Shown: piece by piece, positions 3,136-60,613 of the stretch
Numbering within the stretch: the first letter of the stretch is position 1
How the letters are laid out: the number at the start of each line of letters is the position of its first letter
DNA from: an uncultured Gammaproteobacteria bacterium
GTDB lineage: Bacteria; Patescibacteriota; Patescibacteriia; UBA11705; DATKZF01
Direction of reading: 5' to 3'
DNA length: 64,000 bases
Assembly: GCA_964411255.1 (NCBI GenBank)
Contig: CAYPKD010000001.1
Coordinates: forward strand, 71,331-135,330
Notes under the pieces: model-generated
What the model saw: only the letters and a program-made list of their open reading frames with translations
Told to the model about the DNA's origin: nothing
The model's database searches: none
Program-made: the position numbers and the translations under genes

Positions 3136-3215
3136 ATCTATTACAGCATTTGATACATGATTTAGGATCTATGATCCATGACTCATGTAATTCTCTCTCC
3201 CCAATTTTCATTTTA
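3136..3215 (-). promoter_or_regulatory. conserved leader RNA with coupled mini-ORFs (MSHGS then MYQML) and TCATGA repeats
   Basis: Strong RBS GGGGAGAGAGA 7 nt before AUG AGU CAU GGA UCA UAG (mini-ORF at 3169..3186, minus). The same architecture recurs at 4033-4096 with MSHRS. Confidence 0.45.
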
Positions 3216-3222
3216 ATATTAT

Positions 3223-3251
3223 ATTATATCATATTTTTTTATAAAAGTCAA
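3223..3251 (-). promoter_or_regulatory. sigma70-type promoter TTGACT-17-TATAAT (minus strand)
   Basis: Reverse complement of 3223-3251 reads TTGACT tttataaaaaaatatga TATAAT: perfect -35 and -10 elements with a 17-nt spacer. Confidence 0.6.
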
Positions 3252-3268
3252 GAGTATCATTAATTATT

Positions 3269-3284
3269 TAGCTAAATTTAGCTA
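3269..3284. promoter_or_regulatory. perfect 16-bp palindrome TAGCTAAATTTAGCTA ~20 bp upstream of the -35 (putative operator/activator site)
   Basis: Perfect dyad symmetry. It is conserved at the same relative position in cassette 2 (4151-4164). Confidence 0.45.
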
Positions 3285-4032: not shown

Positions 4033-4096
4033 TCTGATCCATGATCCAAGATTCATGATCTATGACTCATGACCAAACTCTCTCTCCTATATTTTA
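4033..4096 (-). promoter_or_regulatory. conserved leader RNA with coupled mini-ORFs (MSHRS then MNLGSWIRNS, joined by an AUGA stop/start overlap)
   Basis: RBS AGGAGAGAGAG 7 nt before the AUG (mini-ORF at 4053..4070, minus). TCATGA palindromes are repeated across the leader. Confidence 0.45.
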
Positions 4097-4103
4097 ATAT
4101 TTC

Positions 4104-4132
4104 ATTATAGCATAAATTTTACAAAAAGTCAA
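4104..4132 (-). promoter_or_regulatory. sigma70-type promoter TTGACT-17-TATAAT (minus strand)
   Basis: Reverse complement reads TTGACT ttttgtaaaatttatgc TATAAT: perfect hexamers with a 17-nt spacer. Confidence 0.6.
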
Positions 4133-4150
4133 TCGTATTATATAATATTT

Positions 4151-4164
4151 GGCTAAATTTAGCT
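4151..4164. promoter_or_regulatory. palindrome GCTAAATTTAGC upstream of the -35 (copy 2 of the putative operator)
   Basis: Same dyad as 3269-3284, at the same spacing from the -35 element. Confidence 0.4.
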
Positions 4165-5080: not shown

Positions 5081-5197
5081 ATTATTGCTTATTTATTATA
5101 ATTATATTATATCACATATTGATAAAAAAATCAATATTGACAACAAAAACCCTTTATTGTAAGTTTATATAATCTCTATTTATACAGGAGGCAAAAA

Positions 5198-6669: not shown

Positions 6670-6782
6670 ACATTAAATTTTATTTTTGAAGCCTTTTACT
6701 GTATTCATCTTTTATCATTTTTTAAAAAATTTGTAAAGCATTAAAAATTACATATCGTTTTTTTCAAAACTAAGTTCATATC

Positions 6783-6980
6783 CAGCATCAGGGGTCTGGG
6801 GGGCTGATTGCCCCCAGCGTAATAATAAAACTTGATAGTCGCTTCGCATTTGAAGCCCCCCAGCACTTTTTGGTTACTTTTTGGTGCCAAAAAGTAACTT
6901 GGCGCAAGCCCAGAACCGTATGGTTCTGGGCTTGCCAACATTGCAAAGGGCAAAGCAGGCTTTGGCCTGCATTGTTAAAA
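6783..6980. repeat. GC-rich structured repeat element, family X copy 1 (possible ncRNA or palindromic mobile element)
   Basis: Shares ~150 nt with 36756-36930. It contains several perfect hairpins (GGGGGCUGAUUGCCCCC; GUUACUUUUUGG-UG-CCAAAAAGUAAC; GCAAGCCCAGAACC-GUAU-GGUUCUGGGCUUGC). The long hairpin differs between copies by compensatory pairs. Confidence 0.5.
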
Positions 6981-7000
6981 TCTAAATTAATTAATATTAA

Positions 7001-7021
7001 AACGTCCCCTATTGGGGACGT
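7001..7021 (-). terminator. intrinsic terminator after the HIT gene
   Basis: ACGUCCCC-UAUU/AAUA-GGGGACGU perfect hairpin, followed on the minus strand by UUUUAAUAUU. Confidence 0.6.
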
Positions 7022-14132: not shown

Positions 14133-14345
14133 ATAAAAAAACCAAGACAAATAATGCTTGGGGCCCTTCCGGGTGGTTCCACCCAATTTCCAGCCGAAGC
14201 CAATATGTGGAGGGGTAGCTCTGCTGCCCCGACTTTGGCTGAGGCTGACTCTCATTCACTACTTCCAGCTTAGTTAGGTTTATACACCTAATTCCTCTGT
14301 GGAAGATTAGTTGGTAGCCAATCCAATCACCTTTAGTAGTGACTT
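14133..14345 (-). promoter_or_regulatory. structured GC-rich leader with a T-box-like motif and terminator upstream of dtd-thrS (candidate Thr T-box riboswitch); contains repeat family Y copy A at 14187-14248
   Basis: The minus-strand RNA contains AAAUUGGGUGGAACCACCCGG (compare the T-box consensus AAUUAGGGUGGNACCGCG). A hairpin CCAAG..CUUGG + U7 follows, ending 6 nt before the dtd ATG. Confidence 0.35.
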
Positions 14346-30816: not shown

Positions 30817-31233
30817 TTATCTTTTCGTTAAATGTTTGAATATAAATTTTTCTATAGCTAAAACTGTTTCATCTTTTAATTCTGCCGGACTTTGAGCAAT
30901 CCAAATTGTAAAATTATATAAGTCTTTTTCATCAACTTTAAGCCATTTATTATTTTTATATATGAATAATAGCAGCGTGGTGATTGCAATACGCTTATTA
31001 CCATTTTGAAAGGGATGATCTTTAATCATTAAATAAAAAAGAATCGCTGCCTTTTTTAGCAATCCCTTGTATAAAGTTTTGCCATGAAAAGATTGAAACG
31101 GCGTTATTAGGCAGCTTTCAAGAATATTTGGCCGGCGAGTGGAAAAATCCGGAATCGGTTCGCTAAATCCCAATTTTTCTTTAGCCACAGCAAATGAAAG
31201 ATATTCAACTTCTGCCAATGTAATTATTTTCAT
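30817..31233 (-). CDS. doc: Doc (death-on-curing) / Fic-fold toxin
   Basis: Doc motif HPFQNGNKRIAITT (HxFx(D/N)GNKR), ~138 aa. Confidence 0.75.
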   Translation of the reverse strand: MKIITLAEVEYLSFAVAKEKLGFSEPIPDFSTRRPNILESCLITPFQSFHGKTLYKGLLKKAAILFYLMIKDHPFQNGNKRIAITTLLLFIYKNNKWLKVDEKDLYNFTIWIAQSPAELKDETVLAIEKFIFKHLTKR

Positions 31234-31241
31234 ATATTACA

Positions 31242-31514
31242 TTACTCAGCAGATAATAATTTTAATGTTTCTCCGTATTCTTTAACTATTCTTCTCATCG
31301 CCTGATCAATTATTTTCTTTTCTTTTGCTTTTAATTCTGAACCATGAATAACTCCGAGTTCTCTTTTTGGAATAGCATAATTCCGGCCTATTTTAAACGC
31401 TTTAATTTGGCCTTTTTTAATTTTTTTAAATACAGCGACCCGGCTAATCTCTAATAAATCAGCCAATTCGCTAACCGAATAAAAATCGTTGTTTTTTGTA
31501 ATTTTCTTTGGCAT
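31242..31514 (-). CDS. HTH (excisionase/Xis-type) DNA-binding protein, putative antitoxin of Doc
   Basis: SVSELADLLEISRVAVFKKIKKGQIKAFKIGRNYAIPKREL helix-turn-helix. It sits immediately upstream of doc with an 8-nt gap. Confidence 0.6.
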   Translation of the reverse strand: MPKKITKNNDFYSVSELADLLEISRVAVFKKIKKGQIKAFKIGRNYAIPKRELGVIHGSELKAKEKKIIDQAMRRIVKEYGETLKLLSAE

Positions 31515-31637: not shown

Positions 31638-31686
31638 GCCTTCTTTCCCCCTTAAGCCACCTTAAGCCTTCTCAAGCCCTCTTAAA
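31638..31686. repeat. GC-richer repeat family Z (cttaagcc/ctcaagccctct motif), copy 1
   Basis: gccttctttcccccttaagccaccttaagccttctcaagccctctt. Related copies lie at 39296-39364 (inverted) and 39811-39872. Confidence 0.45.
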
Positions 31687-31757
31687 TAATATTTTACCAT
31701 AATTTCATAAATCATGGAACATGGAACACATAGCATATAACAAAAAAGCACAGAACT

Positions 31758-36675: not shown

Positions 36676-36755
36676 ATTTTGTAAAATTCACTGCTATTTT
36701 AGCATTTTTTTGGTAAAAAATAAAATTTACCATAAACAAAACACCATTCATCTAT

Positions 36756-36930
36756 AGCATCGGGGGTCTGGGGGGCTGATTGCCCCCGGCGCGAAAAATA
36801 AACTTAATCACTGCTTCGCATTTGAAGCCCCCCAGTGCTTTTTGCCTACTTTTTGGCAGCAAAAAGTAGGTCGGCGCAAGCCGAAATTGGTGAGAATAAA
36901 ATCAGGCCCTCAGGCCTGTATTGTAAAAAA
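36756..36930. repeat. GC-rich structured repeat element, family X copy 2
   Basis: Aligns with 6783-6980. The hairpin CCUACUUUUUGG-CA-GCAAAAAGUAGG carries compensatory substitutions relative to copy 1. Confidence 0.5.
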
Positions 36931-36952
36931 TTACATTAGCAAACAAATTTGA

Positions 36953-37417
36953 TTATAACTTTTCTATTTTTCCCACTGGCATCCGATCATGGCCAGTTAA
37001 TTTTGTATAAAAACCTGAAGACGGCTCAGTTAAAATATAAACTCGCTTTTTTCCATCTTGCTCAACCAATACTGCGTCAATCCCTTTTGGAGTAGCAAAC
37101 CATTTTTTCTTTTCAAAACCCTTCGTAGCTGGCACATGAACTTTTTTTGGTTTAAGCCAATTCCATCGGCCAGCAGCCAAACTTTCTGATCGACACCATC
37201 CAGTATGAGGCATTTTTATTTTTTTATCATCTCTGTTTCCCCATTCATATAAATTTACCTCTCCGTTTTCTTCAATAGGTACGCACGGCTTTTTTTGCCA
37301 AAAGAAAAACGAAATCTCATCGCCTTTTTTGTATTTTTCAAGCTCAGCATCAGTAAAACATTTTTTCACCTGAGCTTTTTTTAATTTTTCATAATAAATT
37401 GCAAATCCTGCGCACAT
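36953..37417 (-). CDS. hypothetical protein, possibly SRAP (SOS-response-associated peptidase)-like
   Basis: N-terminus MCAGFAIY (compare the SRAP MCGRFA Cys2 nucleophile) and C-terminal HDRMPV. It is shorter than canonical SRAP, so the assignment is tentative. Confidence 0.35.
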   Translation of the reverse strand: MCAGFAIYYEKLKKAQVKKCFTDAELEKYKKGDEISFFFWQKKPCVPIEENGEVNLYEWGNRDDKKIKMPHTGWCRSESLAAGRWNWLKPKKVHVPATKGFEKKKWFATPKGIDAVLVEQDGKKRVYILTEPSSGFYTKLTGHDRMPVGKIEKL

Positions 37418-39380: not shown

Positions 39381-39791
39381 TTATTTATTTTTCCCCTCAT
39401 TATCTTCCTCTGCCTTTTTAATTTCTAAAGATTGAATTGTTCTATCTAATAAATACATTGTTTTGATAGCACGATCTTCAAAGTGTTCATATAAATCATC
39501 ATTAATGTATCCTTTTCTTAGAACTCGTCTAACTCGTTCTTGTAATTCGCCATTTGATCTTTTGCTCATCCTTAAAAAACGCAAATATTCAGCAATATAC
39601 CCACTGTAATATCCTTCAACAAAATTAGCTCCTATAGAATCTGATGCGTTGTCTATTTGACTCTTTATCTTATATTCATTTTTTGGGATTCGTTTTAAAA
39701 TATCCTGTACAATTCTATCTAATTCATCTATACTTTGCCAAACAATCATTTTCCTATGGGCATAATTGTTATTTTTATATTGATTTTCCAT
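39381..39791 (-). CDS. four-helix-bundle protein (23S rRNA intervening-sequence protein family)
   Basis: MENQYKNNNYAHRKMIVWQSIDELDRIV...IGANFVEGYYSG...LRFLRMSKRSNGEL is the characteristic family signature. Confidence 0.7.
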   Translation of the reverse strand: MENQYKNNNYAHRKMIVWQSIDELDRIVQDILKRIPKNEYKIKSQIDNASDSIGANFVEGYYSGYIAEYLRFLRMSKRSNGELQERVRRVLRKGYINDDLYEHFEDRAIKTMYLLDRTIQSLEIKKAEEDNEGKNK

Positions 39792-39810: not shown

Positions 39811-39872
39811 GCCCTCTCTTCCTATTTACATCTCAACCTCTCAAGCCTTCTTCTGCCCTCTCAAGCCCTCTA
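39811..39872. repeat. repeat family Z, right arm flanking the four-helix-bundle gene
   Basis: gccctctcttcc...ctctcaagccttcttctgccctctcaagccctcta. Confidence 0.45.
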
Positions 39873-42619: not shown

Positions 42620-42728
42620 TACTGCCATCCTTTCCAAACAATATTGTAATAAAATAAATTATCATAATATTTTGGAAATGTCAATAATAAAAAAAGAGCA
42701 TTTTATAGACATGCTCAGGTCATTTGAG

Positions 42729-43349: not shown

Positions 43350-43418
43350 TCCTCCTTAAAATATAATGATTTTGTAATAAACAGCGACCTATTCACTGTT
43401 AAAAAAGATCAATAAATC

Positions 43419-43447
43419 ATCATAGCACAAAAATTGTAAAAAGTCAA
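43419..43447 (-). promoter_or_regulatory. sigma70-type promoter TTGACT-17-TATGAT
   Basis: Reverse complement reads TTGACT ttttacaatttttgtgc TATGAT. Confidence 0.5.
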
Positions 43448-43522
43448 TAATAAAAACAGAACCTATATTCTGTTCTTATGGCTGTGCCATCCGAAGCTCT
43501 GAGTGTAACGAAGAGCCAAGGA

Positions 43523-54043: not shown

Positions 54044-57000
54044 TTACTGTTCGCTCCAGGGCAAATTAACATCCTTTGCCTTTTCATGGTGCTCAAAGTC
54101 ATCACCAGAAATATCTTCTTTTATCTCTTGAGCGGTCTCTTCTCCATGCCATTCATGCGGTAAATTTCGCACAGGTCTTCTTTTAACTTCTGGCTCTACT
54201 TTTTTATCAAGTTTTGGCTCTAGAGCTTTTGGCGTTCCATGTTTTTCCATTAAAATATTTTGAGTTAATGCTTCGCCTTTTTCCTTATTCTGTTCAATTA
54301 AATCACTCCTAAAATTTTCGTAACCATTCTTTTCACATGTAATATAATAAACATTTTTCCCTACTAAAAAGCTATAACGACCATGTGGATCTGTAACTTG
54401 GGTTTCTAATAACCGATTATATTTATTGTCATATAATCGAACAACAGTTCTGCCAAGAGGCTTTTTATTTGTTTTGTCAGCCACAATACCCCAGCCTTTG
54501 GGCTTCTTTGGCACAGCCAACCTCTTAAATAATGAGTACAATAATAAATGAATAACTAATAATGCAAAGAATAAAGCGCTTGGTTTTATTAAAAATACTA
54601 TAAAAGTAGCAATTGGCCCTAATATGGCCATAACCTTTTGAATTTTTCGCAACAAGTAAACCGTTAAAATTTTTGAACTTGGCTTTGGCTTTTTATCAGC
54701 ATCTAAAGGTATATTTGGTGTTATTACAGATTTCTCATCAACTTGAATACTTTCTCCATGGTATATATCAATGTAAAATAAATCTTCTTTTTGATCAGCT
54801 AAAATCTGAGTTGGGAAAACATACCCTTTTTTAAATACTTTAATATAATAACTGCCAGGCTTCACTACAAAAGAAAATCTGCCTTCTTTATCCGTTACCT
54901 TTGTTTGAATCAACTTATTATTAACTACGTTATATAATCTCAATATTGCCAAATCCACCGGCTGCTTTGTTATTGAATCGTATACTACCCCGTATTTCTT
55001 TCTTTTCTTTTTAAAAATAACAAGCAAAGGTTCAGAAAAAAGGAAAAATAAATATGGTAAAAGTCCTGCTAACGAAGCAATTGATAAAATATTAAACGCA
55101 GTCACTGCAGCAATTGCCGGTGTTCCGAACTTGTCTGTTGCTTCTTCAACGTCAGGATTATTAAATATATTTTCAATTATAAATGATTCATTAATACTCT
55201 TTATAAAATCTGATTCAACAATCCTGTTTCTTAAATCTTTTAAAGCCTCAACAATTTCTGCTGCTGCGACAATTTCAATTTCCTCAGTCTGTTCATTATT
55301 ATCCAATTCATTTTCACAATCTGGATCTGCCAAATCGACTAAACCATCGCCGTCGTTATCCAATCCATCTGAACATTGCGGTAGGATCAATTCATCAGTC
55401 TCATCATCATCTTCAGTACTTCTGCAGCCAGGATCTGATGGATAATCAACCAAACCGTCATTGTCATTATCAATATCATCTGAACATTGATAGATAACTA
55501 TTTCATCTATCTCATCATCATCTTCCAAACTTTCACAACCAGGATCTGTAGGCCAGTCTGTTAACCCGTCATTATCATTATCAATGCCATCAGAGCATTG
55601 AGTGATTAATTCTTCTTCAACTTCATTATTATCTTCTGGGCTATCGCAACCAGGATCTGCCGGATAATCTATAAAACCGTCATCATCATTGTCTACACCA
55701 TCTGAACACTGGGTCACAGGCGCTTCATCTTCTTCACTATTATCCTGCTCACTAGAACAGCCAGGATCTGCCGGATAATCTACTAAACCATCATTATCAT
55801 TATCAGTATCATCTGAGCATTGTGGCACGAACTCAACATTAAACTCATTATTGTCTTCAGGGTATGAGCAGCCCGGATCTGCGGGAAAATCGATTAAGCC
55901 ATCGTTATCATTATCAATATTATCTGAACAAGCTGGCAAAACTTCGTCTATTTCATTATCATCTTGGTCACTATCACATCCAGGATCTGCAGGGTAATCA
56001 ATTAGGCTGTCATTATCATTATCTATACCATCTGAACATTGCGGTAAAATCACCACATCAGCCTCGTCATTATCCTGATCGCTATCACAACCAGGGTCTG
56101 CTGGATAATCAACCAAACTGTCATCGTCATTATCAATGCCATCTGAACACTGAGGTAAAGCACTTGAAGTGGTAAAAATAAACAAATCAGTAAAATCAGT
56201 TTCTTCACCATCACCATTTCTGGCCTTTACCCTAAACGAATAATCAGTTGATGGAGACAATCCTATATTGGTCCAGCCAGTATCTGTAATCCAGTCAGAA
56301 TTTTGGCCAGTATCAATATTTTCAAACCAAAGAGTTGTCAAACCATCTCCTAAGTTTGGTAAACTTCCATTTGCCTCAATGGTAATAAAATCACTTCCAG
56401 CATCAACTAAAACCAATTCATCTGGTTTATTTATTAAAGTATATTTCGAAGCACTTTCTGACCAATCAGACTGATCAGTATTATTTTGTGCCATTACCTG
56501 AAAAGTATACTCAGTATTTTCAGATAAACCTGCAATATTTTTCCCAAGCAAACTGCCCCAGCTATTATATGATTGCCATTCTTCAGTCATATCCAGAGTG
56601 CCATCAGACTGCAAATAAAGTCCGGTTGTTGTTTCATTTATCAAATATAAAACATCATCCTCATTACCATTAGGATCTAAAACAATATTTAATATTGACG
56701 GTGATATGGCCAGCAAAGTTGGCGCGCCAGGAACATACAGCACAGCATCTGACAATGTAGCAAAAGTTTGATCAGCTGATTCAGCAGGATTAAAATTACT
56801 GTCGCGCACCCAAATTTTAAAATGATATTCAGTGTCAGGAATTAAATTAGCCAAATCTACACTGTGTGATGTTAAAAAATTATTATTATCAACCTGAGAT
56901 CCATAACTATCTGTTTCACCATAATAAAGTATAGACGTTGCCAATTCATCTGTTTCCCAAGTAATGGTAACTGAAGTGGTAGTAATATTAATTACCTGAA

Positions 57001-58711: not shown

Positions 58712-58842
58712 AACCCCAGATTATTTATTTATTACAAATAAAACAGCAAATTTGTAATTATTTGTAATCTTTTAAATCTCTTCTTTATTATTTGTAATTA
58801 TACAAAAAAAACAGCTCTTTGGCCATTTTTTTATTAACAAAT

Positions 58843-58905
58843 TATCCAGCAGAAGCCATAACGTGGAGAGGTAACTTCTGCTGCCCCGACTTTGGCTGAG
58901 GCTGA
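58843..58905. repeat. GC-rich repeat family Y copy B (immediately 3' of argS)
   Basis: tatccagcagaagccataacgtggagaggtaacttctgctgccccgactttggctgaggctga is ~85% identical to 14187-14248. Confidence 0.55.
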
Positions 58906-58909
58906 GATA

Positions 58910-60613
58910 TCACATCTTCTCAAGCCACTCCACATTAAGCAAATCAAGTCCCACTCTCAGTCTCTTCCTCACTTTCTGAGCTAGATTAAACCTGGCAGCT
59001 TTTAATTCTTCGTTTTCAGCCCTAATTATTGAATGTTTTTGATAAAAATCATTAAACGTTTGCGCTAAATCAAATAAATAATTACACAAAACTGATGGAT
59101 CATTTTCCTTATATGCTCTTTTAATTTCATTCTCATTATTTGCTAACAGTTTAAGCAATTCTTTTTCCTCAGTTTCTTTAAGCAAACTATAATCAGCATC
59201 ACCAACTTTTTTAATTTTTTCTTTAATAGAGTTGATTCGAGCAGATGTATATAAAAGATAAGGGCCAGTTTTACCATCAAAGCTCAATGCTTCATCCATA
59301 TCAAAAGTTATCACCTTATTATTTCCAAACTTTAGCATGCCGATCTTTATTGCTGATAAAGAAATTTTTTCTGCTACATCTTTGACTTTGTCATCATCCC
59401 AATCTTTATGCCTCTTTTTCGTTTCTTCAATACTTTTTGTTAGCATTTTATTAAATAACTCGTCAAAAGAAACAATATTTCCTTTTCTGGATGACAGGGC
59501 GCCTTCAGGCAGATTTACAAAATCATAAGGAATATGCACCATACTTTCTTTAAATCCTGCTAATTCCAAGGTCTTAAATATTTGTTTTAAATATAAAGAT
59601 TGACGATTATCAACAATATAAATACTTTTGTCAGCTTTCTTTTTTGCTTTTTTATAAGCCAATGCCAGATCACTTGTTGAATATAATGTAGTACCATCTG
59701 ATTTTAAAATAAGCAGCACATCCAAATCATATTTTTTCAAATCCACTATGATAGCTCCCTGATCTTCTTTAGCAATACCTTGCCTGATCAATTGACTAAC
59801 GATTTTTCTTCCTTTATTTAAAACATCACTTTCAAAATACCAGGCATCAAATTGTATTCCCATAAGCCCGTAAATCCTTTCAAAATCTTCAATGCTCCAC
59901 TTCTGAGTTTTTTTCCAAATTTTCATTATCTCTTTGTCTTTTTTCTCAAGTTTTATTAAAATATCATCAATCTCGTCTTTTAATTTTTCATCTTGGTCAA
60001 GTTTCTTAACGGCTTCAGTATAAATTTTTCCTAAAAAATTTGTTTTGTTTTCTTTTGGCTCTTCATCTTTATGAAACTTTAAATACGCCCACAAACATTT
60101 GGCCACATGAAGGCCCACATCATTAACATAAGTGGCAGCAATAACTTTATCACCAATATATTTATTCAAATTAACAATTGCTGCACCTAAACAAGCATTT
60201 CTCAAATGCCCAACATGAAATTCTTTGTGCGTATTTGGCTGAGAATATTCAATCATCACTTTTTCAGGCCGAAGCCTGCTCCCTTTGCCGAGGGGAAACT
60301 GCGTTTCCCCGACTTTCCCAGGCTGAGGACTGCCCTCAATCAATTCTTTCGCCCAAACCTCTGCTTTCAAATAAAAATTGATATACGGCCCCGTTGCTTC
60401 AACTTGTTCCCAAACCTCATTTGAGCCTAATTTTCCAGCCATTTTTGCAGCAAATTCAGCAGGATTTTCTTTAGCTAATTCAAAAACTGGCAAACTCAAG
60501 TCACCCATTTTAACATTTGGTGGAAATGTAAAATTTTCAGGCTTAATATCTTTAAAAGCTTGATCAATTTCTGCTAACTTTTCAATTAATTGTGTTGTTA
60601 TACTATTTAACAT
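58910..60613 (-). CDS. argS: arginyl-tRNA synthetase
   Basis: HVGH (HIGH) motif, class I core, DALR anticodon-binding domain, and the typical C-terminal ...KM. Confidence 0.9.
   Translation of the reverse strand: MLNSITTQLIEKLAEIDQAFKDIKPENFTFPPNVKMGDLSLPVFELAKENPAEFAAKMAGKLGSNEVWEQVEATGPYINFYLKAEVWAKELIEGSPQPGKVGETQFPLGKGSRLRPEKVMIEYSQPNTHKEFHVGHLRNACLGAAIVNLNKYIGDKVIAATYVNDVGLHVAKCLWAYLKFHKDEEPKENKTNFLGKIYTEAVKKLDQDEKLKDEIDDILIKLEKKDKEIMKIWKKTQKWSIEDFERIYGLMGIQFDAWYFESDVLNKGRKIVSQLIRQGIAKEDQGAIIVDLKKYDLDVLLILKSDGTTLYSTSDLALAYKKAKKKADKSIYIVDNRQSLYLKQIFKTLELAGFKESMVHIPYDFVNLPEGALSSRKGNIVSFDELFNKMLTKSIEETKKRHKDWDDDKVKDVAEKISLSAIKIGMLKFGNNKVITFDMDEALSFDGKTGPYLLYTSARINSIKEKIKKVGDADYSLLKETEEKELLKLLANNENEIKRAYKENDPSVLCNYLFDLAQTFNDFYQKHSIIRAENEELKAARFNLAQKVRKRLRVGLDLLNVEWLEKM
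60266..60330. repeat. GC-rich repeat family Y copy C, inserted in-frame inside argS (encodes GSPQPGKVGETQFPLGKGSRLRP)
   Basis: CCUCAGCC..AAAGUCGGGG-hairpin-CCCCUC..GGCUUCGGCCUG is shared with copies A and B. The segment is GC-rich and sits in the linker before the HIGH motif. Confidence 0.5.

What the first reader, a model, noticed from the sequence alone, without database searches (positions are those of the whole stretch)
6783..6980. GC-rich structured repeat family X with compensatory base-pair changes between its two copies (candidate novel ncRNA or palindromic element)
Seen in sequence: elements of about 175-200 nt at 6783-6980 and 36756-36930 share long blocks (agcatc(r)ggggtctggggggctgattgccccc, gcttcgcatttgaagccccccag, ggcgcaagcc) and several perfect hairpins. 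The 12-bp hairpin GUUACUUUUUGG/CCAAAAAGUAAC in copy 1 becomes CCUACUUUUUGG/GCAAAAAGUAGG in copy 2. Two base pairs are changed on both strands, so pairing is preserved.

This is the signature of selection on secondary structure, at either the RNA or the single-stranded DNA level. Both copies sit in the same context, about 80-100 nt upstream of the start of a minus-strand gene (rfbB; the 1468-aa giant) and just after the upstream gene's terminator. They do not match any structured RNA family I can recall (not tmRNA, RNase P, SRP or 6S RNA).
Basis: seen in the sequence. Interest (0 to 1): 0.7.

Follow-up and report, generated by a model that had tools for sequence, protein, structure and literature searches.

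The report
Dispersed structured intergenic repeat element
The two GC-rich look-alike segments are copies of a previously undescribed, roughly 170-290 base repeat that has been inserted behind many genes of one uncultured AT-rich bacterium. Its hairpins are kept intact by matching mutations, so it is most likely a small non-coding mobile element rather than a conserved RNA gene.

Summary
Window 6781-6977 and 36753-36926 (+ strand) are two copies of one family, and no Rfam family matches. I collected 14 distinct copies.

On 12 aligned copies, four helix domains stay 98% paired. Ten base pairs are changed on both sides.

It does not behave like a conserved ncRNA gene:
- Six copies of the window's genome are absent from the syntenic spacers of a sister species (about 85% nucleotide identity): both window copies, one about 300 nt beyond the window's left edge, and three on another contig.
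- Assemblies break inside the element.
- Sub-variants with nested mini-insertions recur at different loci.
- It sits next to unrelated genes (rfbB, a 1468-aa protein, hrcA, dnaJ, cysS, PMT_2).
- It is always intergenic. The same end always faces the 3' end of a gene (9 of 9 clear cases), usually just after that gene's terminator.

I found no terminal inverted repeats, no target duplication at the one clean junction, no own promoter, and no transposase nearby. One copy is shared by both species and is better conserved than the flanking genes.

Verdict: a new family of small dispersed structured repeats, comparable to bcr1, SPRITE, BOX and ERIC. The transposition mechanism is unknown. On the gene-sense strand the element has a terminator-like layout. 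Interest is moderate.

The parts
6781..6977 (+). Copy 1, conserved core of the element (the strand named is the one on which G-U pairs keep all helices closed).
   Evidence: Covariance model R1, 184 bits. Identical in two other assemblies.
6741..6998 (+). Copy 1, full extra DNA relative to the empty site of the sister species: the core plus A+T-rich tails.
   Evidence: In L017 and L016 the HIT terminator T-run is followed directly by GCCTTTACA. The window has about 258 more nt.
6796..6863 (+). P1 domain of copy 1. The long-range helix is CTGGGGGGCT (6796-6805) with AGCCCCCCAG (6854-6863). It encloses an optional local hairpin (6798-6815), a variable unpaired spacer, and hairpin P2, GCTTC-GCATTT-GAAGC (6841-6856).
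   Evidence: I4. Covariation at 4 of 9 pairs, with one non-standard cell in the most divergent copy, L007:2442-2613. The alternative local hairpin is broken in several copies.
6873..6898 (+).
   Evidence: I3. 100% paired in 12 copies, with 3 pairs changed on both sides.
6899..6938 (+). P5 of copy 1: TTGGC-GCAA-GCCAA, interrupted by a nested 26-nt palindromic extension (arms 6904-6917 / 6922-6935).
   Evidence: I1. The extension is also present in copy W0 (L028) and in L015:17098-17296. In W0 it is a 19-nt palindrome between 7-nt direct repeats GCAAGCC. U-A to C-G and G-C to C-G covariation.
6955..6970 (+). P6 of copy 1: GCAGGC-TTTG-GCCTGC. Read on the minus (gene-sense) strand it is followed by TTTGCCCTTTG.
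   Evidence: The same module meets the terminator-like criteria in copy 2 and in two L015 copies.
7002..7021 (-). Intrinsic terminator of the upstream HIT gene. It is not part of the element but marks the insertion point.
   Evidence: Conserved in the empty site of the sister species.
36753..36926 (+). Copy 2, conserved core (subfamily with CCTAC.../...GTAGG in P4 and TCGGC/GCCGA in P5).
   Evidence: Model R1, 186 bits.
36727..36945 (+). Copy 2, approximate extent of the DNA that replaces the sister species' 117-nt spacer, which there contains its own terminator. The upper boundary is imprecise.
   Evidence: Alignment with L018.
36768..36835 (+). P1 domain of copy 2 (arms 36768-36777 / 36826-36835), with P2 at 36813-36828.
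   Evidence: (I5).
36845..36870 (+). P4 of copy 2: CCTACTTTTTG / CAAAAAGTAGG.
   Evidence: I3.
36871..36884 (+). P5 of copy 2: TCGGC-GCAA-GCCGA. On the minus strand it is followed by CCTACTTTTT and scores as terminator-like.
36903..36918 (-). P6 of copy 2. On the gene-sense strand it reads CAGGCC-TGAG-GGCCTG followed by ATTTTATT. It is the only terminator-like site behind the 154-aa gene (36953-37417).

Best explanation
The two segments belong to a lineage-restricted family of small, non-coding, dispersed repeat elements. The core is 170-200 nt, or 220-290 nt with A+T-rich tails.

Shown:
- The family has spread by insertion into the short spacers of a compact, AT-rich genome. In the two sites where the junctions can be read, the insertion lies right after the T-run of a gene's intrinsic terminator and before the next promoter.
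- The orientation is fixed. The P6 end always faces the 3' end of a gene.
- The element is a string of G+C-rich hairpins: P1 (a long-range helix enclosing P2), P4, P5 with a GNRA loop, and P6. Compensatory changes keep these closed across subfamilies.
- It has no protein-coding capacity, no terminal inverted repeats and no target duplication.

Inferred:
- It depends on a factor encoded elsewhere. That factor is not a classical DDE cut-and-paste transposase. It probably recognises folded single-stranded nucleic acid.
- On the gene-sense strand the element begins with hairpin-plus-U-run modules (P6, and P5 followed by UUACUUUUU). It can therefore end or reinforce the end of the upstream transcript.
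- This would explain why only one orientation persists, and why in two loci the element is the only terminator-like feature behind the upstream gene.
For: Family and copy number:
- 14 distinct copies were collected by a 19-mer scan, by pseudo-ORF hits and by walking along contigs.
- Contigs end inside the element.

Insertion polymorphism. Six of six copies of the window's genome are absent from syntenic spacers of a species with about 85% nucleotide identity.
- HIT-rfbB: 124 nt versus 376 nt.
- 156-aa gene to giant gene: 117 versus 277.
- 184-aa gene to hrcA: 99 versus 386.
- yacP-dnaJ: 53 versus 206.
- 172-aa gene to cysS: 163 versus 482.
- 287-aa gene to PEGA gene: 53 versus 384.
- At the hrcA site the flanks are nearly identical (one mismatch). 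The insertion is 286-287 nt, between the T-run and the -35 hexamer TTGACA.

Copy-and-spread:
- The same nested 19/26-nt palindrome in P5 occurs at three loci.
- The same 24-nt hairpin in the P4 loop occurs in two subfamilies.

Structure:
- 98.3% of pair cells are paired and 10 pairs are changed on both sides. No shuffle of 500 reaches this.
- Singleton substitutions run at 0.24 per paired column against 0.53 per unpaired column.

Orientation and neighbours:
- The P6 end faces a gene's 3' end in 9 of 9 unambiguous loci.
- The neighbouring genes are unrelated in function.

Terminator-like modules on the gene-sense strand.

Negatives that fit:
- No Rfam family.
- No conserved promoter.
Against: - No transposition event, target duplication, terminal repeat or partner gene was found, so 'mobile' rests on comparative presence and absence. 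Six losses in the sister species would need as many events as six gains. The clean empty sites argue for gains.
- One copy, in the Cu-oxidase_4/PMT_2 spacer, is orthologous in both species. It is 97% identical where the loci overall are 86% identical, and all differences lie outside the helices. This fits a selected function better than a purely selfish element. Assembly collapse at a repeat could inflate the figure.
- G-U pairs occur only on the + strand (8 cells, against 0 A-C cells). GNRA loops and a tandem G-A motif also lie on that strand. This points to folding of the strand opposite to the one that carries the terminator-like reading.
- Two of the empty sites are not simple insertions. 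At the giant-gene and yacP-dnaJ sites, 40-70 nt of the sister species' spacer are replaced.
Confidence: 0.6

Rival explanations
1. A family of paralogous small RNA genes. The + strand would be transcribed as a structured RNA of about 200 nt with a cellular function, for example binding a protein. Copies would arise by duplication.
For: - Multi-helix fold with covariation.
- G-U pairs only on the + strand.
- GCAA or GUAA loop closing P5 in 11 of 12 copies.
- Invariant unpaired blocks: GGGGT, and the GCATTT loop.
- One orthologous copy is better conserved than its flanking genes.
Against: - No promoter-like or terminator-like signal for the + strand in any copy examined.
- Six of seven copies in this genome are missing from a sister species.
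- Insertions carry variable tails.
- Nested insertions are tolerated inside helices.
- No match among 4227 Rfam models.
Confidence: 0.15
2. A hairpin-dependent single-strand DNA element. It would be a non-autonomous derivative of an IS200/IS605-type (or IS91-type) transposon moved in trans by an HUH transposase, possibly carrying a guide-RNA scaffold for TnpB or IscB.
For: - No terminal inverted repeats and no target duplication.
- Hairpins near both ends.
- Strict orientation bias in a genome whose genes and GC skew are co-oriented.
- Strongly structured over 170-200 nt.
Against: - The hairpins at the two ends are unlike each other, whereas IS200/IS605 ends carry similar hairpins (my knowledge of IS608 and ISDra2).
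- No common 4-5-nt target next to one end in the four readable junctions.
- No Y1 transposase, TnpB or IscB among 39 window proteins scanned, nor next to other copies.
- No hit to HEARO or any other Rfam family.
- The strand that tolerates wobble pairs (+) is the inferred leading-strand template, not the lagging-strand template.
Confidence: 0.1
3. An RNA-mediated, SINE-like retro-mobile element. A structured + strand RNA ending in an A-run would be reverse-transcribed from a nick at the T-run of a terminator. One conserved locus would act as the master gene.
For: - The + strand core ends in TATTGTAAAAAA in most copies.
- The complement of that A-run lies on the same strand as, and downstream of, a terminator T-run. 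In copy 2 and at yacP-dnaJ it follows the upstream gene directly.
- Fixed orientation relative to the terminator.
- Variable 5' extent (75 extra nt at the hrcA site).
- No terminal repeats.
- Wobble pairs only on the + strand.
- One copy conserved across species.
Against: - No reverse transcriptase was seen.
- In four copies 20-45 nt of homologous A+T-rich tail separate the A-run from the terminator T-run, so the A-run is not the 3' end.
- No promoter.
- No such element is known in bacteria.
Confidence: 0.05

Closest known systems
bcr1 repeat of the Bacillus cereus group (about 155 bp)
   Same: - Small non-coding intergenic repeat with many copies.
- Distribution not conserved between related strains.
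- Multi-hairpin fold kept by compensatory base changes.
(As summarised in PMC3184786.)
   Different: - bcr1 is flanked by 5-bp direct repeats and is known to be transcribed.
- Here no target duplication is seen at the clean junction, and transcription is untested.
- No sequence similarity.
- This element is longer and has four helix domains.
Pneumococcal SPRITE, BOX and RUP repeats
   Same: - SPRITE is a dispersed repeat whose fold resembles a Rho-independent terminator.
- BOX is modular, with optional modules (PMC3184786).
- The present element also carries terminator-like modules on the gene-sense strand and optional modules.
   Different: - SPRITE is about 105 nt and essentially one terminator-like hairpin.
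- RUP has terminal repeats and an IS partner.
- No sequence relationship to any of them.
- The orientation lock to gene 3' ends was measured here, not taken from those families.
REP/BIME elements and their RAYT transposases
   Same: - Extragenic, G+C-rich hairpins.
- Often behind genes.
- Mosaic arrangement of modules.
- Proposed roles in termination and mRNA stability (PMC3733652 abstract).
   Different: - REPs are 20-40-nt palindromes tagged by GTAG or CGTC.
- Here the unit is 170-200 nt with a long-range helix and carries no such tag.
- No RAYT gene was seen in the window.
Classical bacterial MITEs (Correia/nemis, ERIC/RU-1)
   Same: - Size.
- Lack of coding capacity.
- Copy number.
- Intergenic location.
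- Stable predicted RNA folds.
   Different: MITEs are defined by terminal inverted repeats and target-site duplications. Both were tested here and not found.
Bacterial class C group II introns and other terminator-targeting elements
   Same: - Insertion directly behind intrinsic terminators.
- Fixed orientation relative to the terminator.
- No terminal repeats or duplications.
(From my knowledge.)
   Different: - The element is far too short for six intron domains.
- No domain V and no reverse transcriptase.
- No Rfam intron hit.

Membership tests
Any Rfam 15 RNA family | Score at or above the family's gathering threshold. | tested here: not met
   No hit in the whole window at gathering thresholds. 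At E up to 10, only scattered sub-threshold hits to single hairpins.
Classical MITE | Terminal inverted repeats. | tested here: not met
   The inverted-repeat search of four complete copies finds only internal hairpins and the P1 helix. No conserved pairing of the two ends was found.
Classical MITE | Target-site duplication flanking each copy. | tested here: not met
   At the hrcA site the flanks are nearly identical to the empty site (one mismatch), and at most 2 nt are ambiguous at the junctions. The other junctions lie in diverged A+T-rich DNA and are inconclusive.
Classical MITE | Short, non-coding, multicopy, with filled and empty sites among relatives. | tested here: met
   14 copies were found. 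No conserved reading frame. Six empty sites.
Classical MITE | A parent IS with matching ends in the same genome. | not testable with these tools
   Only about 110 kb of this genome could be read. No transposase domain in 39 window proteins.
REP/BIME | A 20-40-nt palindrome with a GTAG or CGTC tag at one end. | tested here: not met
   The unit is 170-200 nt. GTAG occurs only inside the P4 arm of one subfamily.
IS200/IS605-derived element or its guide-RNA scaffold | Similar subterminal hairpins at both ends, and a fixed 4-5-nt target next to the left end. | tested here: not met
   The end hairpins differ: GGGGGGC-TGATT-GCCCCC against GCAGGC-TTTG-GCCTG. Four readable junctions share no motif.
IS200/IS605-derived element or its guide-RNA scaffold | TnpA, TnpB or IscB encoded in the genome. 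| not testable with these tools
   None in the window or beside other copies.
bcr1-like structured mobile repeat | Compensatory changes keep the fold, and distribution is non-conserved among relatives. | tested here: met
bcr1-like structured mobile repeat | 5-bp direct repeats at the ends, and the element is transcribed. | tested here: inconclusive
   No direct repeat at the clean junction. Transcription cannot be tested here.
SPRITE-like terminator element | The fold contains a Rho-independent terminator motif. | tested here: met
   On the gene-sense strand, P6 plus a U-run qualifies in copy 2, L15a and L15c. P5 followed by (G)TTACTTTTT or CCTACTTTTT qualifies in copy 2, L15b and L15c. Copy 1's own hairpins do not qualify.
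Integron attC site | A single imperfect palindrome with GTTRRRY core sites, following gene cassettes. | tested here: not met
   Several independent hairpins, no core sites seen in the alignment, and housekeeping genes as neighbours.

The most novel reading that the evidence does not exclude
The element is propagated through its structured + strand RNA. A conserved master locus, such as the copy shared by both species in the Cu-oxidase_4/PMT_2 spacer, would produce an RNA that is reverse-transcribed into terminator T-runs. That would make it a bacterial counterpart of eukaryotic SINEs.

The following features fit this reading and are not excluded:
- Wobble pairs occur only on the + strand.
- GNRA and tandem G-A motifs lie on that strand.
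- An A-run follows the last helix.
- Orientation is fixed relative to terminator T-runs.
- The 5' extent varies.
- There are no terminal repeats or duplications.
Probability: 0.06. Interest if true: 0.85.

Novelty: new member of a known kind. Interest (0 to 1): 0.4.

Why it matters
- It gives a concrete, testable example of a non-coding element multiplying in a very compact, AT-rich genome of an uncultured bacterium. Spacers there are only 50-160 nt, so there is almost no room for insertions.
- It lacks the hallmarks of cut-and-paste transposition. It is locked in one orientation behind gene ends and keeps a four-domain fold by compensatory change. The way it moves is therefore unknown and could involve folded single-stranded DNA or RNA.
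- Practically, it breaks metagenome assemblies and is mis-called as 63-66-residue hypothetical proteins. It also inflates apparent 'structured ncRNA' candidates in G+C-based intergenic screens.

Tried and rejected
Searches that led nowhere:
- A 20-mer scan of 185,579 species genomes gave only two chance hairpins in G+C-rich alphaproteobacteria.
- Two scans of viral contigs gave one chance hit.
- BLAST against phages gave nothing.
- A chimeric six-frame protein query saturated the candidate cap and returned nothing.
- The exhaustive representative search with the pseudo-ORF added only a false positive, a repetitive 1459-aa protein.
- The host taxon could not be established. The sample identifiers lead only to a data paper.

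Readings rejected:
- Protein coding. One frame is open in copy 1 and is called as a gene in public annotation, but it has stops in copy 2. The apparent peptide ...FIYSIGGLGG* has no start codon in either window copy.
- Riboswitch or leader. The neighbouring genes are unrelated, and the element lies upstream of their promoters.
- tRNA or tmRNA.
- Retron, integron attC and group II intron, by anatomy.
- Terminal inverted repeats.
- The extra 75-85 nt carried by the hrcA copy match nothing else that I hold.

Structure:
- RNAalifold prefers an alternative fold for the 5' domain: the first G-run with the distal C-run, plus a local hairpin.
- I kept the long-range helix P1 because it stays paired and covaries in all but one cell (the diverged L007 copy), while the local hairpin is broken in three copies.
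- The two folds may alternate.

Full report
**1. Observation**

The two segments are real and related.
- They align at 80% identity over 146 ungapped nt.
- They share two exact blocks of 25 and 23 nt that never occur in shuffled sequence.
- They fold far better than dinucleotide shuffles on either strand, with z from -4.9 to -6.4.
- The cited hairpin has perfect arms at 6873-6884/6887-6898 and at 36845-36855/36860-36870, and differs at two pairs on both sides.
- A covariance model built later finds exactly these two copies in the 64-kb window, at 6781-6977 and 36753-36926, both on the + strand.

**2. Host and context**

- The window is about 34% G+C. Almost all genes lie on the minus strand, and GC skew is uniformly negative on the + strand.
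- The genes are cellular: rfbB/rmlA/rmlD, pyruvate kinase, PPDK, and tRNA synthetases.
- Several families (DUF4012, 23S-rRNA intervening-sequence protein, giant ORFs without domains) suggest a candidate-phyla-radiation-like bacterium. This is only a guess.
- Copy 1 lies between the HIT gene's terminator (7002-7021) and the rfbB promoter region.
- Copy 2 lies between a 154-aa gene and the 1468-aa gene, with no other terminator.

**3. More copies**

- Rfam gives nothing.
- A 19-mer scan of metagenome contigs gave six real members. Four of them sit at contig ends.
- Public gene calling had annotated a 66-aa ORF inside copy 1. Searching with the window's 70-aa ORF over the same stretch led to a 200-kb contig with three more copies within 7.3 kb.
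- Walking from the window's ends found another copy about 300 nt beyond the left edge, and a Logan contig that ends inside elements at both ends.
- A last look-up found a copy in the Cu-oxidase_4/PMT_2 spacer of both the window's species and its sister species.
- In all there are 14 distinct copies.

**4. Structure**

Written on the + strand, the core runs in this order:
- a conserved GGGGT;
- helix P1 (CUGGGGGGC with GCCCCCCAG, about 50 nt apart), which encloses an optional local hairpin, a variable unpaired spacer and hairpin P2 (GCUUC-GCAUUU-GAAGC);
- the A/U-rich 11-12-bp hairpin P4;
- P5 (UUGGC-GCAA-GCCAA);
- P6 (GCAGGC-NNNN-GCCUG), followed by UAUUGUAAAAA and an A+T-rich tail.

Evidence for the fold:
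- On the model-guided alignment of 12 copies, 98.3% of 361 pair cells are standard pairs and 10 of 34 pairs show changes on both sides. No shuffle of 500 reaches this on four of the five measures (1 of 500 on the fifth), and sliding the partners gives 37-59% pairing.
- The MAFFT alignment gives the same picture.
- P1 covaries at four pairs: C-G to U-A, G-C to C-G, G-C to U-A, and C-G to G-C.
- P4 covaries at three pairs and P5 at three.
- Singleton substitutions are half as frequent in paired as in unpaired columns.
- RNAalifold prefers a different pairing of the G- and C-runs, but that alternative is broken in three copies.

Which strand folds:
- All 8 wobble cells are G-U on the + strand. 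No cell is A-C, which would be wobble on the minus strand.
- The GNRA loop of P5 and a tandem G-A motif in an optional P4 extension are also on the + strand.
- The evidence is weak, because four of the eight wobble cells come from one position and one more (L009) lies in sequence at a contig end that does not match the family.

**5. It is an insertion, not a fixed gene**

A sister species with conserved gene order and about 85% nucleotide identity lacks the element at all six sites where the window's genome has it.
- At the hrcA site the flanks are nearly identical (one mismatch). The extra DNA is 286-287 nt and lies between the upstream terminator's T-run and the -35 hexamer. At most 2 ambiguous nt remain at the junctions, so there is no target duplication.
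- At the rfbB site the empty allele joins the terminator T-run directly to the promoter.
- At the giant-gene and yacP-dnaJ sites, the element replaces 40-70 nt of the sister species' spacer. At the giant-gene site this includes that species' own terminator.
- No terminal inverted repeats exist.
- Sub-variants recur at different loci. A 19-nt palindrome flanked by a 7-nt direct repeat inside P5 occurs in three copies. A 24-nt hairpin in the P4 loop occurs in two copies of different subfamilies.

**6. Orientation and neighbours**

- In 9 of 9 loci where the neighbour is unambiguous, the P6 end faces the 3' end of a gene, usually 20-50 nt beyond that gene's terminator.
- The other end faces either the upstream side of a promoter or the terminator of a convergent gene.
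- On that gene's sense strand, P6 plus a U-run, and P5 followed by UUACUUUUU, score as intrinsic-terminator-like in several copies.
- No promoter-like site is conserved on either strand.
- No transposase, reverse transcriptase or TnpB domain occurs in 39 window proteins or next to other copies.

**7. A conserved copy**

- The copy in the Cu-oxidase_4/PMT_2 spacer is present in both species. It is 97% identical over 371 nt, while the loci overall are 86% identical.
- All seven differences inside the element fall at its 5' edge and in the unpaired spacer.
- 192 consecutive nt are identical, including the tail and the neighbour's terminator.
- This may reflect constraint, recent recombination, or assembly collapse at a repeat. 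One contig of the sister species begins with 23 nt of the other species' variant.

**8. Interpretation**

- The best reading is a new family of small dispersed, structured, non-autonomous repeats. It is closest in behaviour to bcr1, SPRITE/BOX and ERIC (PMC3184786).
- It fails the defining tests for classical MITEs, REPs and IS200/IS605 derivatives.
- Shown: family, fold, covariation, insertion polymorphism, orientation lock, and absence of terminal repeats and duplication.
- Inferred: dependence on a trans-acting factor that recognises folded single strands, and tolerance or usefulness as a terminator cassette.
- The RNA-gene reading, the single-strand-DNA transposon reading and a SINE-like retro-mobile reading remain open at lower probability.

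Noticed in passing
L028:7554-7750 (minus strand of that locus), about 300-490 nt beyond window position 1: A third copy of the element in the same contig, between convergent genes (a 287-aa gene and a PEGA-domain gene). It carries the same P5 palindromic extension as copy 1. The site is empty in the sister species.
   Followed up: yes
window 6904-6935; L028:7602-7620; L015:17098-17296: A nested mini-insertion inside helix P5. It is a 19-nt palindrome, CAGAACCGTATGGTTCTGG, bracketed by a 7-nt direct repeat GCAAGCC. The repeat is intact in the L028 copy and mutated to GCTTGCC in the window copy, which lengthens the palindrome. It looks like a tiny secondary insertion with a duplication.
   Followed up: partly
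L009:27-47 and L011:1704-1724: A 24-nt hairpin, CCTGCCCTGAGC(G/A)A(A/G)GTCGAAGGG, with a tandem G-A motif. It sits at the same position of the P4 loop in copies of two different subfamilies, and occurs nowhere else in the sequences I hold.
   Followed up: partly
window 14150-14250 and 58807-58910: A second, unrelated repeat: an exact 29-nt match (TCTGCTGCCCCGACTTTGGCTGAGGCTGA) inside blocks that are similar over about 60 nt. Both lie upstream of minus-strand genes (a D-Tyr-tRNA deacylase and a 227-aa gene). On the minus strand a 9-bp helix, CAGCAGAAG/CTTCTGCTG, is possible in one copy.
   Followed up: partly
window 31638-31692 and 39837-39871: Runs of a purine-rich decamer (minus strand GGCTTAAGG / GGCTTGAGA) just upstream of small minus-strand genes. 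One of these genes encodes a 23S-rRNA intervening-sequence protein (39381-39791).
   Followed up: no
window 3210-3283, 4091-4164, 5096-5134, 42646-42697, 43411-43460: Repeated A+T-rich blocks that on the minus strand read TTGACTTTT...TATAAT. They are probably near-identical strong promoters in front of several small genes.
   Followed up: no
window 55279-56155: Tandem 111-nt (37-residue) repeats inside the 1038-aa ORF. The neighbouring 2059-aa ORF was not scanned, and the 1468-aa ORF has no Pfam domain.
   Followed up: no
L032:3660-4030 versus L036:4695-5065: The intergenic region holding the shared element copy is 97% identical between two species whose flanking genes are about 86% identical. 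It includes 192 identical nt in a row that extend into the neighbouring terminator and the gene's end.
   Followed up: partly
window 6741-6953 (minus strand); P0001-P0003: Public gene calls annotate 63-66-residue hypothetical proteins inside copies of the element. The frame is not conserved between copies, so these are spurious ORFs.
   Followed up: yes
window 30817-31514: A Fic/DOC-domain gene (138 aa) preceded by a 90-aa ORF, possibly a toxin-antitoxin pair.
   Followed up: no
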